50,132 nt of DNA, from the IMG/VR virus record IMGVR_UViG_3300044838_000066, positions 1 to 50,132 of that record; one strand, given 5' to 3'. Under the pieces are notes generated by a model, which was given only the letters and a program-made list of their open reading frames with translations, ran no database searches and was not told the DNA's origin. Positions 34,763 to 39,972 of the stretch are shown here, in pieces. Origin of the DNA: a virus (Duplodnaviria > Caudoviricetes). Numbering within the stretch: the stretch's first letter is position 1; each line of letters begins with the position of its first letter. The position numbers and the translations under genes are program-made.

Positions 34763-35863
34763 GTGCCTACCATTACGAGTCAAATCGTAACTGTAAACGC
34801 GATTGTAACCGAAGCGCCGACACCCTCGCAGCTTCAGCAGAGCGGCGCATTGGTATCGGTCGGCGGTACGACGCAAACGACGGGCACGTACACGTACTAC
34901 GGCACCCTCGCGGGCGTAATCGCGGCCCTGTCCTCCAGCGGCAACTTCGATGAGATTCAGGACATGGCGACAACGTTTTTCGCGCAGGGGAACGCCGTCG
35001 GCTTGTACGTCCTCGAACTCGGCGTCGAAGGCTCATCGGCGGCGGGGATAACCGCGCTCGGCTCGTGGATAACATCGAACCCAGGCATCTTTTACGCCTA
35101 CCTCACGCCCGCGGCATGGGACGCATCCGGCGCAGCGCTCAACACGCTTGCAGCGAACCACTCAAGCCCAACAGGGAAAACGTACTTCTTCGTCACGACG
35201 ACAAGCGCAACGATAAGCGCGTACGCGATAACGACGAAGGCCATATTCGCCACGGTTCCAAGCCCAACGGCAGCGGGAACCGAATTCCAAGCAGCCGCGT
35301 TTTTCTACCAATGGTTGTCGAATGCGCCGAGCGCAACGTCCCCGGCTCCGCCGATGGGATTCCGTTTTCTTTACGGCGTGACGCCCTGGGTACAAAACGG
35401 GAATCAAACGACGATCAATTCGATTCTCACTGCGTACGGGAACATCGTCGGGACAGGCGCCGAAGGCGGCATATCGACGGCGACGACCTTTCGCGGAACG
35501 ACAATGGACGGCGAGCAGGCCATGGGATGGTGGGCGATCGATTGGGTGCAAATCCAAGCGAAGCAGCAGCTCGCAGCCGCGATCATCGACGGAAGCAATG
35601 AAAACCCGCCGCTGTACTACAACCAAAACGGCATAAACCGTTTGCTCGCGATCCTAACAGACATCGGCAGCACGGGCATATCGTACGGGCTCTTGCAGGC
35701 CGCGACGTTCGCAGCCGTGCCGTTCGCGACGTACATCGCGCAGAATCCGGGGAACTACCCTGCCGGAATCTACAACGGCTTCAGCGCGACGGTAACGCCG
35801 CAGTACGGATTCGAGCAGATCGTCTTCAATGTTGACGCCCTATCGTTTGGGAGTGGCGCGTAA
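34763..35863 (+). CDS. Tail sheath protein (short form)
   Basis: WWAIDWVQI and PLYYNQNGINRL motifs; precedes a 147-aa tube-sized gene. Confidence 0.75.
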   Translation: MPTITSQIVTVNAIVTEAPTPSQLQQSGALVSVGGTTQTTGTYTYYGTLAGVIAALSSSGNFDEIQDMATTFFAQGNAVGLYVLELGVEGSSAAGITALGSWITSNPGIFYAYLTPAAWDASGAALNTLAANHSSPTGKTYFFVTTTSATISAYAITTKAIFATVPSPTAAGTEFQAAAFFYQWLSNAPSATSPAPPMGFRFLYGVTPWVQNGNQTTINSILTAYGNIVGTGAEGGISTATTFRGTTMDGEQAMGWWAIDWVQIQAKQQLAAAIIDGSNENPPLYYNQNGINRLLAILTDIGSTGISYGLLQAATFAAVPFATYIAQNPGNYPAGIYNGFSATVTPQYGFEQIVFNVDALSFGSGA

Positions 35864-36309: not shown

Positions 36310-36888
36310 TTGCAAATCAATAACGCGCTGAATCTCGTTCTCCCGATTCGGTATGACGACAAGGGAGAACCGAATATATACGCCTACCATTCCCCGATCT
36401 CGACTGAAGTCTTCACCGCGAACTACCGCATCCTCGTAGCGGCGAATGCGGCGATATGGCAGCGCGGATCGAATTACGCGGCGGCATGCGCGAGCACGGC
36501 GAACCTCGCGCTTCTTGACGCGGCAACGGCAGACGCGCAAGAACGCGGAATCGACAGCCAAGGCCCGGCGTTTCTCGCGCAGATAAAACGGCTCACATAC
36601 GTTCTTGCTCCCGGCGCGAACGGATACGAACAACTGCCGGTAGACATTGCCATTACGCGCGATATCATCGACGCCGCCGATTGGAACGAGGCTGAAAGTT
36701 CCATAGTATTTTTTTTCTTGGGATATGCCCTACTCCCAAGAGCAGCACGCAAGGTCCGCTGTACCCTAATCGCATCAGCCTTGAATGGATCGACAGCCTC
36801 TGCGCTGCCGCTAGAGTGGATTCAATCTTTGCCCGCTGCGATACCGGCGAGCGATACGCCGGAGATTCTGTCCTCGCAGCTGTCCTGA
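36310..36888 (+). CDS. Tail assembly chaperone (gpG-like)
   Basis: Between tube and tape measure; internal slippery T TTT TTC. Confidence 0.7.
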   Translation: MQINNALNLVLPIRYDDKGEPNIYAYHSPISTEVFTANYRILVAANAAIWQRGSNYAAACASTANLALLDAATADAQERGIDSQGPAFLAQIKRLTYVLAPGANGYEQLPVDIAITRDIIDAADWNEAESSIVFFFLGYALLPRAARKVRCTLIASALNGSTASALPLEWIQSLPAAIPASDTPEILSSQLS

Positions 36889-37025
36889 ATTGGGTCATCG
36901 GCGCAGGCTTCGCCGAGGTCTTCTCGCGGCATGGAATAGATCAATTCAATTCCGCGCACGCATACCGTAATCGCCACATCCTAGAGCTAACGCGCGGGCT
37001 CAAAGGGCTAGTTGGCGGTTCTTAA
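36711..37025 (+). CDS. -1 frame extension of the tail chaperone (gpGT-like)
   Basis: The -1 frame is open from the T8 run (36709-36716) to TAA at 37025. Confidence 0.6.
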   Translation, partial: FFLGICPTPKSSTQGPLYPNRISLEWIDSLCAAARVDSIFARCDTGERYAGDSVLAAVLNWVIGAGFAEVFSRHGIDQFNSAHAYRNRHILELTRGLKGLVGGS

Positions 37026-37285
37026 CTGGATATGCGCATTGAATGCCGCGAAACGTAATCGCAATACGAACCGCCCACAACCAATGCAACGCCTAAGATC
37101 AAGTAAAGCGTAGCGGGCGGGCTATCCACAAAGAATGCAATAACGGACAAAATAAACACTGGGAAAGCCGCCCATTTCAGCAGCGTTCCGAATGCGCCGA
37201 GAATGAACGAACCCGCAAGGGAAGATTGCTTAGGGGTATTATTATCCGGGATGCGGACGGCATGGATCGTTTGATCGCTGTTCAT
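37022..37285 (-). CDS. Membrane protein (2-3 TM), moron-like
   Basis: Hydrophobic helices; opposite strand to neighbours; TATACT box upstream at 37319-37324. Confidence 0.75.
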   Translation of the reverse strand: MNSDQTIHAVRIPDNNTPKQSSLAGSFILGAFGTLLKWAAFPVFILSVIAFFVDSPPATLYLILGVALVVGGSYCDYVSRHSMRISS

Positions 37286-37429
37286 TTAGGTCGCCTTATA
37301 GAGAGAGTTTGCTCTGGTAGTATATGCCAATAATCCTTAGAACCGCTGATAGGAAGCACACTCTTTACACGTCTTACGGTTGCATTGCCTTACAATGTTA
37401 CCGTTAACAGAAATTAACGGAAATTAACG

Positions 37430-37531
37430 CCGCGTTTTCGGAGGGAAAAGCCGAACCTCGCGCAAGCGAAAAGGCAGAGCCGAACGCACCGAGCGGGCGT
37501 CCTAACGGGCGTGCTATCCCTCCTGCGCGGT
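37430..37531 (+). ncRNA. Candidate structured RNA, domain A
   Basis: CCGCG..GGAGGGA / TCCCTCC..CGCGG closing helix; TCGC-GCAA-GCGA GNRA hairpin; CGTCC-TAAC-GGGCG hairpin. Confidence 0.5.
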
Positions 37532-37545
37532 ACAAAGAATTGCAA

Positions 37546-37610
37546 AGAAAAAACCCGACATGCCTTGCGGCGCATCGGGTTCCCTCACGACATTTGGGAA
37601 CGTCTGAGGG
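37546..37610 (-). ncRNA. Candidate ~65-nt antisense sRNA
   Basis: Minus-strand TGaTACAAT (37623-37615), then a CCCTCAGAC/GTCGTGAGGG hairpin, then terminator AACCCGA...TCGGGTTTTTT. Confidence 0.5.
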
Positions 37611-37661
37611 GTATATTGTATCATCGCCGGGACGGCTTCCTAGCAATACGAGCAGCTATGG

Positions 37662-38042
37662 GCGCACAAGGTCCCTCGGACATCCGCTGATGCGCAAGCC
37701 AATGCGCTTCCCCCGTCGCTCGACGTAGCGGACCGAATCGAGAAACCCCGACCGGCCTAACCGGCTCGGTAGTCGATCCCGGCCCAACGGGTGCGCCAAG
37801 CTCGAATCAAGCGAGGCGTAGCGCTGGTGCAGATGAACACGTCGTTCCTTGAACGCGCGACGAGCATTTGCCACCTGACCCCTGCAAGCAACGTACAGCC
37901 AACCGCCGTTGCGCCTGAGCAGGGAATGACGATTCCTTCCGAAGCGATGGCGACGGAGACAGAAGTCATAAGGGTTCCGTGAGAGCGGCACCTTTATGCC
38001 ACAACCTCGCTCATGCTCAAGAGATGAGGGCTCCTTGTGCGC
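37662..38042 (+). ncRNA. Candidate large structured RNA, domain B (~380 nt)
   Basis: Ends pair perfectly over 10 bp (GCGCACAAGG/CCTTGTGCGC) plus CCCTC/GAGGG; about 10 nested hairpins; no convincing ORF. Confidence 0.6.
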
Positions 38043-38061
38043 ACGTGCGAAACGGTAATCC

Positions 38062-39972
38062 ATGCCGAACACGCGGTCGATAATTCAGATTGACGTTGCC
38101 GACTCAGCCTTCGATGCGTTCCAGGAAAAATTCAAGTCCTACCTTGGCGAGCTAGACAAGCAGCAAGAGAAGTGGGAGAAGGCCGGCTCGGCGATGGGGC
38201 TCTCGGGCGAGGCGCTCGCGGGCGGCGCGCTCAACGCGAAGGACGCCCTCGCAGTAGCGGCGGCGCAAGCCGGGGTTATTTCCGAGGCGATAGCCAAGGC
38301 CGTGAAGGCACAGAACGACCTGGGCGGGGCGACCAAGCGTAGCGGCGATCACATGGGCAAGCTCCACACAGCGGCGAAGGGCGTGGGCGGGGCGATAAGC
38401 AGCATCGCGGGGTTCATCGTCAAGATCGCCGCCTTTGGAGGCTTGGGGGGCCTTCTCGGGGGCCTTGGGATTTCCGACCTCGCGGGGGCTACGCTCCAGC
38501 GTTCGCGATCGGCGGGACGGCTCAATATGAGTACCGGCGCGCTGGCGAGCTTCGGGGTACACCTCCAACAGTTTCTCGGCACGGGCGACCTCCAGAATGC
38601 CGTCATGGCACAAAACACCGTGGGTGGCCTCGGTGCGCTTTCCATGCTCGGGATTAACCCGCAGCGTGCTCAAGGGATGAATCCAGGGAACCTGGCTATT
38701 GAGGAACTCAGGGCCGCAACGAAGATATACCTTGGCGACAAGGCTCGCGGCATGCAGACACCTCTGAGCGATCCGTACCTCAAGAACGTATTCCAGGGGA
38801 TGCTCGGCGGCGATATTCAGAGCGTTCTCCTTGCCGCGCAGCCTGGCGGATTGTCAGAATTAGATAAAAGACAACGCGGATTCAATCAAGATATCGCTGG
38901 GAATCAAATAGGAAAAAAACAGCAAGATGCATGGAATAATCTCGCTATTACGCTTGGAGCGGCCGGTACGAAAATCCAAACACTGTTTATCGACAAGCTA
39001 TCCGGGCTTGCGGGGCCGATAGGAAAACTCACGGACGCATTCGTGGGGTTCATTGGGAAAATTCTCGGAAGCTCCGGCGCTACGTATGCAATTGACACAC
39101 TCTCGAAAAACTTGGATAAGTTCGGCACGTACTTAACCGATGGGCAATTCCAAAAAGACTTACAGACGACGCAGAAGAATTTTCACGATTTCAGTAACGA
39201 GCTTGCGGTTATCGTGAATCATCTCCGATGGTTACTGCCAAATGCGCCGCCGGCAACCGAATCCCAGAAGGACGTAAATACACATAAGTACTTGGAAAAC
39301 CAAAATCCGCTCGCATCTTTGGGCGTTGACTTAGGATTGAAGGCTTCGAACTTTTTCAGCGGCCCCCATGGCGTCATGGCAAAGAAAATCATGGGAATTG
39401 CAGCGAATATGATGGTCGATCCGATTACGGCTGCTGCAACCGCGTTTTTAGAATCAGGTTTCAATCCACGCGCGCAAGGCGACAAGAATAAGAAAGGGGG
39501 ATATGATTCTAGCGGACTCTTTCAACTCAATCGGTACGGAGAGGGTGCGGGCATGCTCCTTAGTCAACTGTTCGATCCGAAAACGAATACGCAGACTGCT
39601 CTCTCACGGTTTTCGTACATAAACAAAATAGGCGAGAAGGCGACGGAGAATCTCTTTTCAAAGGCAGTAAGAAGCGCGGCAACTCATGTTGATTCACACG
39701 GTAATCCCTTGGGGCCAAACGTATCGCACGCACAAATCTCAGCGCTTTTCAACACGGAGGGAATGCGATCTGCTGCATCTCAGCGCCCTTCAGACCCGTA
39801 TGATTATGCGATCCACATAAACCAAATACGCGCAGCAATGCTTAGGCAACTTTCGCATTCTCCTAAGCCCGCACAGAAGACCGTACCTCATACGCCTGTG
39901 CCGACTAAAATTCACATCGTAAACCAAACGCAAGCGCGCGTCGTCGTGCAAGCAAACGCGGCGGCGTACTAA
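38062..39972 (+). CDS. Tape measure protein with C-terminal lytic transglycosylase domain
   Basis: Ala/Gly-rich helical 636 aa; LESGFNPRAQGD...SSGLFQL SLT motif. Confidence 0.88.
   Translation: MPNTRSIIQIDVADSAFDAFQEKFKSYLGELDKQQEKWEKAGSAMGLSGEALAGGALNAKDALAVAAAQAGVISEAIAKAVKAQNDLGGATKRSGDHMGKLHTAAKGVGGAISSIAGFIVKIAAFGGLGGLLGGLGISDLAGATLQRSRSAGRLNMSTGALASFGVHLQQFLGTGDLQNAVMAQNTVGGLGALSMLGINPQRAQGMNPGNLAIEELRAATKIYLGDKARGMQTPLSDPYLKNVFQGMLGGDIQSVLLAAQPGGLSELDKRQRGFNQDIAGNQIGKKQQDAWNNLAITLGAAGTKIQTLFIDKLSGLAGPIGKLTDAFVGFIGKILGSSGATYAIDTLSKNLDKFGTYLTDGQFQKDLQTTQKNFHDFSNELAVIVNHLRWLLPNAPPATESQKDVNTHKYLENQNPLASLGVDLGLKASNFFSGPHGVMAKKIMGIAANMMVDPITAAATAFLESGFNPRAQGDKNKKGGYDSSGLFQLNRYGEGAGMLLSQLFDPKTNTQTALSRFSYINKIGEKATENLFSKAVRSAATHVDSHGNPLGPNVSHAQISALFNTEGMRSAASQRPSDPYDYAIHINQIRAAMLRQLSHSPKPAQKTVPHTPVPTKIHIVNQTQARVVVQANAAAY

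What the first reader, a model, noticed from the sequence alone, without database searches (positions are those of the whole stretch)
37662..38042. Candidate novel ~380-nt structured ncRNA directly upstream of the tape measure gene
Seen: this lies in the largest gene-free gap (37286-38061) of a very compact genome. Its ends pair: 37662-71 GCGCACAAGG with 38033-42, and 37673-77 with 38026-30. Nested helices include 37683-88/37727-32, 37692-96/37703-07, 37737-41/37773-77, 37748-55/37761-69, 37778-81/37788-91, 37792-97/37815-20, 37825-35/37865-73, 37880-85/37919-24, 37888-93/37907-12, 37926-30/37965-69 and CCGT-GAGA-GCGG (GNRA loop). G-U pairs work on the plus strand. I could not match it to tmRNA, RNase P, group I/II intron cores or hammerhead motifs. 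Inference: a phage-encoded multi-branched RNA (large phage RNAs such as GOLLD and ROOL are a precedent, no homology implied), or a cis-element controlling tape measure translation, since it ends 19 nt before an ATG with no clear SD.
Basis: partly seen in the sequence, partly recalled or inferred. Interest (0 to 1): 0.85.

Follow-up and report, generated by a model that had tools for sequence, protein, structure and literature searches.

The report
Phage non-coding RNA cassette with antisense RNA
The gap before the tail tape-measure gene of this soil phage holds a swappable, conserved non-coding cassette that most likely makes a long folded RNA and a short opposing RNA matching no known RNA family; its function is unknown.

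Summary
The stretch folds better than shuffles on the + strand (z -4.64). No Rfam family, tRNA or tmRNA matches.

The unit is drawn wrongly. The closing helix 37662-71/38033-42 keeps only 8 of 10 pairs in the one related phage. Relatives in three other metagenome runs stop resembling the window at 38024.

What is conserved is a roughly 590-nt cassette, 37439 to about 38024. It has domain A (37439-37530) and domain B (37612-38024) on the + strand. Between them lies a minus-strand sRNA gene of about 65 nt, with an extended -10, two hairpins and a U-run.

The cassette is non-coding. Domains A and B are 90% and 84% identical to the relative, against 39-64% at four-fold sites of flanking genes. It has 12 compensated pairs, against 0-1 in slid controls.

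A relative without the insertion and one with different cargo show it is an accessory insert, not a tape-measure-specific element.

Only two full sequences were available, and function is inferred.

The parts
37022..37285 (-). 87-aa minus-strand ORF. It is context: a variable insert gene to the left of the cassette.
   Evidence: ORF list. No Pfam or PHROG match. L002 and L006 carry different ORFs here, of 114 and 122 aa.
37286..37438 (.). Conserved, unstructured control segment with tandem AAATTAACGG repeats. It is the left border of the swappable cargo.
   Evidence: 89% identical to L002. 95.8% identical over 144 nt to L006, whose tape-measure protein is only 45% identical. Also held by an X2 contig that then continues with other cargo resembling L006's by its first 30 letters. 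Fold z is -0.8 on + and +0.35 on -. Repeats at 37411-37430.
37439..37530 (+). Domain A: a multi-hairpin domain of about 90 nt closed by GGAGGGA/TCCCTCC, with a GCAA-capped hairpin.
   Evidence: 90.2% identical to L002. Helices and covariation: U-A to C-G, C-G to U.G, G.U to G-C. z is -2.2/-2.3 on + against -2.0/-1.1 on -.
37546..37610 (-). Antisense sRNA of about 65 nt: a 5' hairpin (stem 37582-87/37605-10), a terminator hairpin (37554-37579, GNRA loop) and a U6 run (37548-37553).
   Evidence: Fold of 37540-37610 on the minus strand gives z -5.22. The L002 equivalent gives z -4.67. The linker gives z -6.9/-4.8 on minus against -2.5/-3.4 on +. Covarying pairs and the loops GCAA, GUAA and GUGA appear in three variants.
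37615..37623 (-). Extended -10 of the sRNA promoter (TGATACAAT on the minus strand).
   Evidence: Read from the sequence. At 37618 the contigs of X2, X13 and one of two X11 contigs read the base that turns the hexamer into TATAAT. The tool's promoter scan did not call it.
37612..38024 (+). Domain B: a multi-hairpin RNA domain of about 410 nt.
   Evidence: 83.8% identical to L002. z is -2.0/-3.05 on + against -0.55/-0.60 on -. There are compensated pairs in 6 of its helices. Contigs of 4 of 4 laid runs cover parts of it, and the likeness ends at 38024 in three of them.
37594..37598 (+). UUGGG in the loop of the + strand form of the linker hairpin. Candidate loop-loop partner of 37783-37787.
   Evidence: Two adjacent compensated changes against L002 (GG to AA with CC to UU). 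Only 2 such 5-bp helices exist in the alignment, against a mean of 0.5 in 30 column shuffles.
37783..37787 (+). CCCAA in the 6-nt loop of hairpin 37778-37791. Candidate partner of 37594-37598. It is the same five letters as the sRNA's hairpin loop.
37715..37773 (+). Variable insert region of domain B, including hairpin 37748-37769 with the conserved CCUAAC loop.
   Evidence: Replaced by 87 other letters in contigs of X2 and X11 (table 5). The hairpin is rebuilt with different stem letters in L002.
38025..38061 (+). Junction to the phage backbone.
38062..39972 (+). 636-aa tape-measure-like protein with an SLT lysozyme-like domain (context).
   Evidence: PF18896 and PF01464 at residues 448-522. 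phrog_7694. Position after sheath, tube and chaperone-like genes.

Best explanation
The gap holds a horizontally exchanged, purely non-coding cassette (about 37439-38024). It sits as an accessory insert (a 'moron', recalled term) between the tail-chaperone and tape-measure genes.

The cassette most likely encodes two RNAs:
(1) A + strand RNA of about 590 nt, built of domain A and the large multi-hairpin domain B. I infer it is transcribed from the conserved control segment just upstream and runs on into the tape-measure gene.
(2) A convergent minus-strand sRNA of about 65 nt, with its own extended -10 promoter inside the 5' edge of domain B and its own intrinsic terminator. It is fully complementary to the linker between the two domains.

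Proposed mechanism (inferred): the sRNA pairs with the linker hairpin of the long RNA through its loop. In doing so it competes with a loop-loop contact between that hairpin (UUGGG) and a domain B hairpin (CCCAA). This would control the fold, processing or stability of the long RNA.

Shown here: conservation, absence of coding, compensated helices, strand asymmetry, and the swappable, accessory nature of the cassette. Inferred: transcription itself, the loop-loop contact, and any function. My best guess is an RNA-based accessory function, such as immunity or counter-defence, rather than tail assembly.
For: Non-coding: every ORF of 12 aa or more on either strand gains a stop, changes frame or diverges in L002, except one 16-aa minus-strand ORF (37994-38044) that lies in conserved sequence. 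No protein in the 5.8-billion set resembles the 138-aa ORF.

Selection: domain A is 90.2% and domain B 83.8% identical to L002. Four-fold sites of five flanking genes are 38.8-64.1% identical.

Structure: in a curated + strand model, 98.4% of 255 cells are paired. 12 of 128 pairs changed on both sides, against 0-1 in six slid controls and 6.0 +/- 1.7 in shuffles (0 of 500 reach 12).

Strand: of 256 cells, 19 are G.U and 1 is A.C. Domain B gives z -2.0/-3.05 on + and -0.55/-0.60 on minus. The linker gives z -6.9/-4.8 on minus.

sRNA: two hairpins plus U6, z -5.22 and -4.67. The terminator loop is GNRA on the minus strand in three variants. There are compensated changes at 37564/37569 and at 37582/37610. 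A change at 37618 makes the -10 consensus in relatives.

Accessory and mobile: L004 lacks the insertion. L006 has the same control segment but other cargo, which ends in a + strand terminator-like hairpin. Contigs from soil, peat, watershed and freshwater runs hold the element and diverge from the phage at 38024.

No Rfam match.
Against: Only two full-length sequences exist. The structure was derived from those same two sequences, which inflates the pair counts, as the tool itself warns.

The G.U count is biased, because the helices were chosen mostly on the + strand fold. Domain B's z-scores (-2 to -3) are modest.

No promoter for the long RNA was found (0 sites). No + strand terminator follows domain B in the window.

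The sRNA promoter is weaker in the two phages: spacing of about 20 nt to the nearest -35-like hexamer, and a poor -10 in L002. The scan tool missed it.

The loop-loop contact rests on one sequence pair, with a chance expectation of 0.5 such helices per alignment.

High identity could partly reflect recent transfer rather than selection.

One 2x2 C/A internal loop (37673-74/37743-44) would be G.U pairs on the minus strand.
Confidence: 0.6

Rival explanations
1. The + strand element is a cis-acting leader of the tape-measure and tail genes. It might act as processive antitermination, processing or translation control, needed because the insertion broke the coupling between the chaperone and tape-measure genes. 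The sRNA would gate it.
For: The element lies directly upstream of a tape-measure start that has no SD. No + strand terminator separates them. In L004 the tape-measure start sits about 5 nt after the end of the overlapping frame (2664-2990) that runs on past the chaperone-like ORF, so coupling is the default state.
Against: L006 has the same insertion site and the same SD-less start but unrelated cargo, which ends in a terminator-like hairpin. Relatives in other runs are followed by sequence unlike the phage after 38024. The last 37 nt before the start are backbone or junction, not part of the conserved element.
Confidence: 0.15
2. Domain B is transcribed on the minus strand as one RNA of about 480 nt. 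It would start right of 38024 and end at the 37554-37579 terminator, so the 'sRNA' is only its 3' end.
For: The only clear terminator in the gap is on the minus strand, directly downstream of domain B in that direction. A promoter, structured RNA and terminator make a natural gene. A 9-bp helix with two G.U pairs forms on the minus strand at 37670-79/37738-47.
Against: The minus strand of domain B folds no better than shuffles (z -0.55 and -0.60). 19 G.U against 1 A.C favour the + strand. A conserved G.U in the 9-bp helix 37967-75/37990-98 would be C.A on the minus strand. A near-consensus promoter sits at 37615-23, giving the short RNA its own start. I saw no promoter-like site right of 38024 by eye.
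Confidence: 0.1
3. This is an RNA-primed replication or copy-control module of the ColE1 type. The long structured + strand RNA would be a pre-primer and the short antisense RNA its inhibitor, carried by a phage that may live as a plasmid.
For: The layout resembles RNA II/RNA I as I recall it: a non-coding sense RNA of about 550-600 nt, a short antisense RNA near its 5' part with a strong promoter, and loop-loop first contact. In run X11 the contigs have high and equal depth (58-59), with a shared part at 129. A first-reader note says no integrase is visible (untested).
Against: There is no Rfam hit to RNAI or any other family at E up to 10. There is no match in 72,556 plasmid records. The sRNA covers positions about 107-170 of the long RNA, not its 5' end. 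The position is inside the tail operon. The phage has its own loader and initiator region elsewhere. No origin features were tested.
Confidence: 0.07
4. There is no functional long RNA. The stretch is recently exchanged spacer DNA or a decayed gene, and only the sRNA and the control segment are functional.
For: High identity can come from recent recombination, and the phage genomes are mosaic here. No RNA data exist. The z-scores are modest.
Against: 12 compensated pairs against 0-1 in slid controls. Of 21 paired positions that changed, 4 lost pairing. The linker next to it has drifted to 63% identity while domains A and B stay at 84-90%. The element persists at 90% identity or more in runs from four habitats.
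Confidence: 0.08

Closest known systems
GOLLD and ROOL large ncRNAs of phages and prophages (Rfam families; details recalled)
   Same: Large (about 600 nt), many-hairpin, non-coding RNA carried by phages, with unknown biochemical function and patchy, mobile distribution.
   Different: No covariance-model match at E up to 10. There is no tRNA neighbourhood. This element carries an embedded antisense sRNA gene and sits in the tail operon.
Phage cis-antisense sRNAs: P22 sar, lambda OOP (recalled)
   Same: An RNA of about 65-77 nt made from its own promoter on the opposite strand inside a phage transcription unit, ending at an intrinsic terminator.
   Different: Those target protein-coding mRNAs (ant, cII). 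Here the target is a non-coding linker between two structured RNA domains. No sequence relation was tested, since the families are not available as models.
ColE1 RNA II / RNA I (recalled; RNAI is an Rfam family)
   Same: A long structured non-coding sense RNA plus a short antisense RNA, and a proposed loop-loop first contact.
   Different: No RNAI model hit. The sRNA has one target hairpin plus a terminator instead of three stem-loops. It is not at the 5' end of the sense RNA. There is no evidence of an origin.
Type I toxin-antitoxin loci such as hok/sok (recalled)
   Same: A highly folded sense RNA of about 400 nt whose ends pair in the window, plus an antisense RNA of about 65 nt with a strong promoter. 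Common on phages and plasmids.
   Different: There is no conserved small hydrophobic ORF, because all ORFs break in L002. The end-to-end pairing is not conserved.

Membership tests
Any Rfam 15 family (including GOLLD, ROOL, RNase P, tmRNA, group I/II introns, HEARO, RNAI, 6S) | Covariance-model score at or above the family's gathering threshold | tested here: not met
   0 matches in the whole window at gathering thresholds. In 36900-38200 at E up to 10 there were only 3 weak hits (sraL 18.6 bits against a cut-off of 39, mir-425, mgtE), none in a known relation to the element. L002 had no hit in the element at E up to 1.
tRNA / tmRNA | ARAGORN detection | tested here: not met
   0 genes in the window.
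Type I toxin-antitoxin (hok/sok-like) | Conserved small hydrophobic toxin ORF on the sense RNA | tested here: not met
   All 6 + strand ORFs of 12 aa or more gain a stop, change frame or (one 15-aa ORF, 37560-37607) diverge almost wholly in L002. None is markedly hydrophobic.
Type I toxin-antitoxin (hok/sok-like) | Short cis-antisense RNA with its own promoter and terminator | tested here: met
   (sequence features only; no expression data).
ColE1-type RNA II / RNA I replicon | RNA I homology, and antisense RNA covering the 5' end of the pre-primer | tested here: not met
   No RNAI hit. The sRNA maps to 37546-37610, about 107-170 nt into the cassette. No plasmid match.
ColE1-type RNA II / RNA I replicon | Origin activity (RNase H-processed primer) | not testable with these tools
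   Needs a replication assay.
Structured ncRNA (generic) | Compensatory base changes beyond controls, and no coding signal | tested here: met
   12 compensated pairs against 0-1 in slid controls, with 0 of 500 shuffles reaching 12. No conserved ORF. Caveat: n = 2 sequences, and the structure was derived from them.
Intrinsically terminated bacterial sRNA gene | -10 element, a hairpin or hairpins, and a GC-rich terminator hairpin followed by a U-run on the same strand | tested here: met
   TGATACAAT at 37623-37615. Hairpins with z -5.22. U6 at 37553-37548. Conserved with covariation in L002, X2 and X11. The tool's own terminator and promoter scan reported 0 sites because of its stem and spacing rules.

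The most novel reading that the evidence does not exclude
This is a new class of large (about 600 nt) structured RNA that carries its own antisense regulator. It would move as an RNA-only cassette between phages and other replicons of soil, peat and freshwater bacteria. It might act, for example, as an RNA-based immunity or counter-defence decoy, with the sRNA switching the long RNA's fold by competing for a loop-loop contact.
Probability: 0.3. Interest if true: 0.8.

Novelty: new variant of a known kind. Interest (0 to 1): 0.62.

Why it matters
Large structured bacterial and phage RNAs without a known function are few, and each has opened new biochemistry. This candidate is unusual in three ways:
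- It is a self-contained sense/antisense pair with no protein gene.
- It sits in a recombination hot spot of a tail operon, where relatives carry other cargo.
- It recurs at 90% identity or more in metagenomes from four habitats, in contexts other than this phage.

If real, it would be an RNA-only accessory insert. It would also be a tractable case of an antisense RNA that regulates the fold of a non-coding RNA rather than an mRNA.

Tried and rejected
Known families: Rfam at gathering thresholds and in relaxed mode and ARAGORN gave nothing usable.

BLAST of the gap against 50,697 phage records and of the cassette against 72,556 plasmid records gave no match.

Exact-pattern scans of IMG/VR viral contigs found only the contig of L002. 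The 37 and 38 extra loci were chance matches of 15-20 nt. One 19-nt scan of the GTDB genome contigs gave 4 hits, all chance. Exact words of 15-25 nt miss most relatives below about 95% identity, so these blanks say little about absence.

Protein-guided searches with the tape-measure alignment gave L004 (metagenome), L006 (viral) and nothing in genomes.

A search with the spurious 138-aa ORF gave no protein.

No paralogue of the gap and no convincing antisense target exists elsewhere in the window.

Sequencing runs: no RNA holder is listed, so nothing can be said about expression. The parts of the stretch without contig cover prove nothing.

I considered and dropped several ideas:
- A group II intron domain V in hairpin 37967-37998: no catalytic-triad letters, and the loop is not kept in L002.
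- An 11-nt tetraloop receptor in the CCUAAC loops: they are hairpin loops, not internal loops.
- A riboswitch reading of domain A: no Rfam hit.

The alifold long-range pairs 37524-33/37893-901 and 37902-20/38029-56 have no covariation, and the second uses non-conserved sequence, so I did not adopt them. Supplementary files of papers were not consulted. One literature search (listing and abstract starts only) returned nothing on such an element, so I make no claim about what is in print.

Full report
SETTING. The window is a 50,132-base IMG/VR virus record estimated 96% complete. It has RecT, YqaJ, an IstB/DnaC-like loader, terminase, portal, tail sheath (34763-35863), baseplate J, a DNA methylase and an SNF2 helicase. 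After the sheath come a tube-like gene and a chaperone-like gene (to 36888, with an overlapping frame to 37025). Next is a minus-strand 87-aa ORF (37022-37285), then the 776-nt gap 37286-38061, then a 636-aa tape-measure-like protein with an SLT domain.

THE OBSERVATION. The + strand of 37662-38042 folds at -160 kcal/mol, z -4.64, with 0 of 100 shuffles as good. The minus strand gives z -2.31. There is no Rfam family at gathering thresholds in the window, nothing credible at E up to 10 in 36900-38200, and no tRNA or tmRNA.

RELATIVES.
- Protein-guided searches found one close phage, L002. Its tape-measure protein is 72% identical.
- L006 is more distant, at 45%.
- L004 is at 37%.
- L002 has the whole gap, at 85.3% identity over 782 columns.
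- L004 has no insertion. Its chaperone-like ORF (2260-2880) ends about 115 nt before the tape-measure start (2995), and the overlapping frame 2664-2990 ends about 5 nt before it.
- L006 has a different minus-strand ORF and the same left segment (95.8% over 144 nt), but unrelated cargo of about 480 nt. That cargo folds well (z -3.39) and ends in a + strand terminator-like hairpin.

So 37286-37438 is a conserved control segment, with AAATTAACGG repeats and no fold signal. The cargo, about 37439-38040, is swappable and not needed by the tape-measure gene.

OTHER METAGENOMES. 16 DNA runs from 15 studies hold words of the gap. One holds all of them and may be the source. No listed holder is on record as RNA. 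I laid four runs, X2, X3, X11 and X13 (soil, peat, watershed, freshwater), at 80% likeness or more, and all four have contigs covering parts of 37501-38024. In X2, X3 and X11 the likeness ends at 38024 and runs on into sequence unlike the phage. One X11 contig shares only 37612 onward. Positions 37715-37773 are replaced by 87 other letters in X2 and X11. In L002 the outer helix also has 2 uncompensated mismatches.

NON-CODING AND CONSTRAINED. No ORF of 12 aa or more is kept intact in L002, apart from one 16-aa minus-strand ORF in conserved sequence. The others gain a stop, change frame or diverge. The 138-aa ORF has no relative among 5.8 billion proteins. Identity to L002 by segment is:
- control segment, 89.0%
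- domain A, 90.2%
- linker, 63.0%
- domain B, 83.8%

Four-fold sites of five flanking genes are 38.8-64.1% identical.

STRUCTURE AND STRAND. A curated + strand model has 128 pairs in 21 helices, on alignment A3. It pairs 98.4% of 255 cells. It has 12 pairs changed on both sides, against 0-1 in six slid controls and 6.0 +/- 1.7 in shuffles (0 of 500 reach 12).

That model has limits. It was derived from these two sequences. Two hairpins with indels (37582-37610, and the inner part of 37748-37769) were left out of the count because MAFFT misaligns them. Read by eye, both are rebuilt with different stem letters in L002.

Of the 12 compensated pairs, 2 lie in the terminator hairpin and 2 in the loop-loop contact. 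Of 256 cells, 232 are Watson-Crick, 19 are G.U and 1 is A.C. Shuffle z-scores (60 shuffles each; window/L002) are:
- domain B: + -2.0/-3.05, minus -0.55/-0.60
- domain A: + -2.2/-2.3, minus -2.0/-1.1
- linker: + -2.5/-3.4, minus -6.9/-4.8

I read this as domains A and B on the + strand and the linker on the minus strand.

THE ANTISENSE sRNA. The minus strand 37610-37540 folds into two hairpins followed by U6, with z -5.22. The L002 equivalent gives z -4.67. The terminator loop is GNRA on the minus strand in three variants: GCAA in the window, GUAA in L002, and GUGA in X2 from its changes at 37566/37567. Compensated changes occur at 37564/37569 in both L002 and X2, and at 37558/37575 in L002 only. 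The first hairpin's stem covaries in L002, and in X11 at 37582 with 37610.

The -10 is TGATACAAT. Contigs of X2, X13 and one of two in X11 read at 37618 the base that makes it TATAAT. Combining that with an X3 loose end suggests a -35-like TTGCAG 18 nt upstream in relatives. This is a composite inference from different runs.

LOOP-LOOP CONTACT. UUGGG in the + strand linker hairpin loop can pair with CCCAA in the 6-nt loop of hairpin 37778-37791. L002 has UUGAA and UUCAA at these places. Only two 5-bp helices with 2 or more compensated pairs exist in the alignment. Column shuffles give a mean of 0.5, and 1 of 30 reaches 2. The contact is suggestive only. The sRNA loop carries the same CCCAA, so it would compete for the contact.

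MECHANISM. I propose a long + strand non-coding RNA whose fold or fate is set by a cis-antisense sRNA, carried as an accessory cassette. Transcription, the contact and the function are all inferred.

LIMITS. There are no RNA data. The host is unknown; the nearest isolated phages by portal protein (39-47% identity among the 12 of 14 matching records listed) mostly infect Gammaproteobacteria.

Noticed in passing
window 37286-37438; L002 3216-3372; L006 2338-2481: A control segment of about 150 nt with 2-3 tandem AAATTAACGG repeats is 89-96% identical in three phages whose tape-measure proteins are only 45-72% identical. It is flanked on both sides by different cargo. It looks like a bidirectional promoter/operator that also marks a recombination hot spot.
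   Followed up: partly
L006 2482-2960: The alternative cargo in the same slot is unrelated in sequence but also folds well on the + strand (z -3.39, 0 of 100 shuffles). It ends in a GC hairpin followed by a T-run. It is possibly a second, different RNA insert. Its 79-aa ORF looks unconvincing.
   Followed up: partly
window 37022-37285 (-); L002 2871-3215 (-); L006 1969-2337 (-): The minus-strand ORF left of the control segment differs between phages. In the window it is 87 aa with hydrophobic stretches. In L002 and L006 it is 114 and 122 aa with signal-peptide-like N-termini, and these two resemble each other by eye. None has a Pfam or PHROG match in the window.
   Followed up: no
window 36816-37025 (+): A 69-aa frame overlaps the end of the chaperone-like gene 36310-36888. 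Its C-terminal part reads closely alike in L006. It is probably the frameshift extension of the tail chaperone. Its stop overlaps the stop of the convergent 87-aa ORF by 4 nt.
   Followed up: no
run X11 (window 37507-38024): Two variants of the element, at depths 59.4 and 58.3, share a 3' part assembled once at depth 129. One variant differs upstream of 37612. This means either two copies per genome or two equally abundant strains.
   Followed up: no
window 38062-39972: The tape-measure-like protein carries an SLT/lysozyme-like domain near its C-terminus (residues 448-522). Its start lacks an SD, but a short motif just upstream (CGAAACGGTA) is kept in the three phages that have the insertion.
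   Followed up: no
window 37497-37512 and 37748-37769: Two hairpins, one in domain A and one in domain B, present the same loop letters CCUAAC, conserved in L002. This could be a shared binding site.
   Followed up: no
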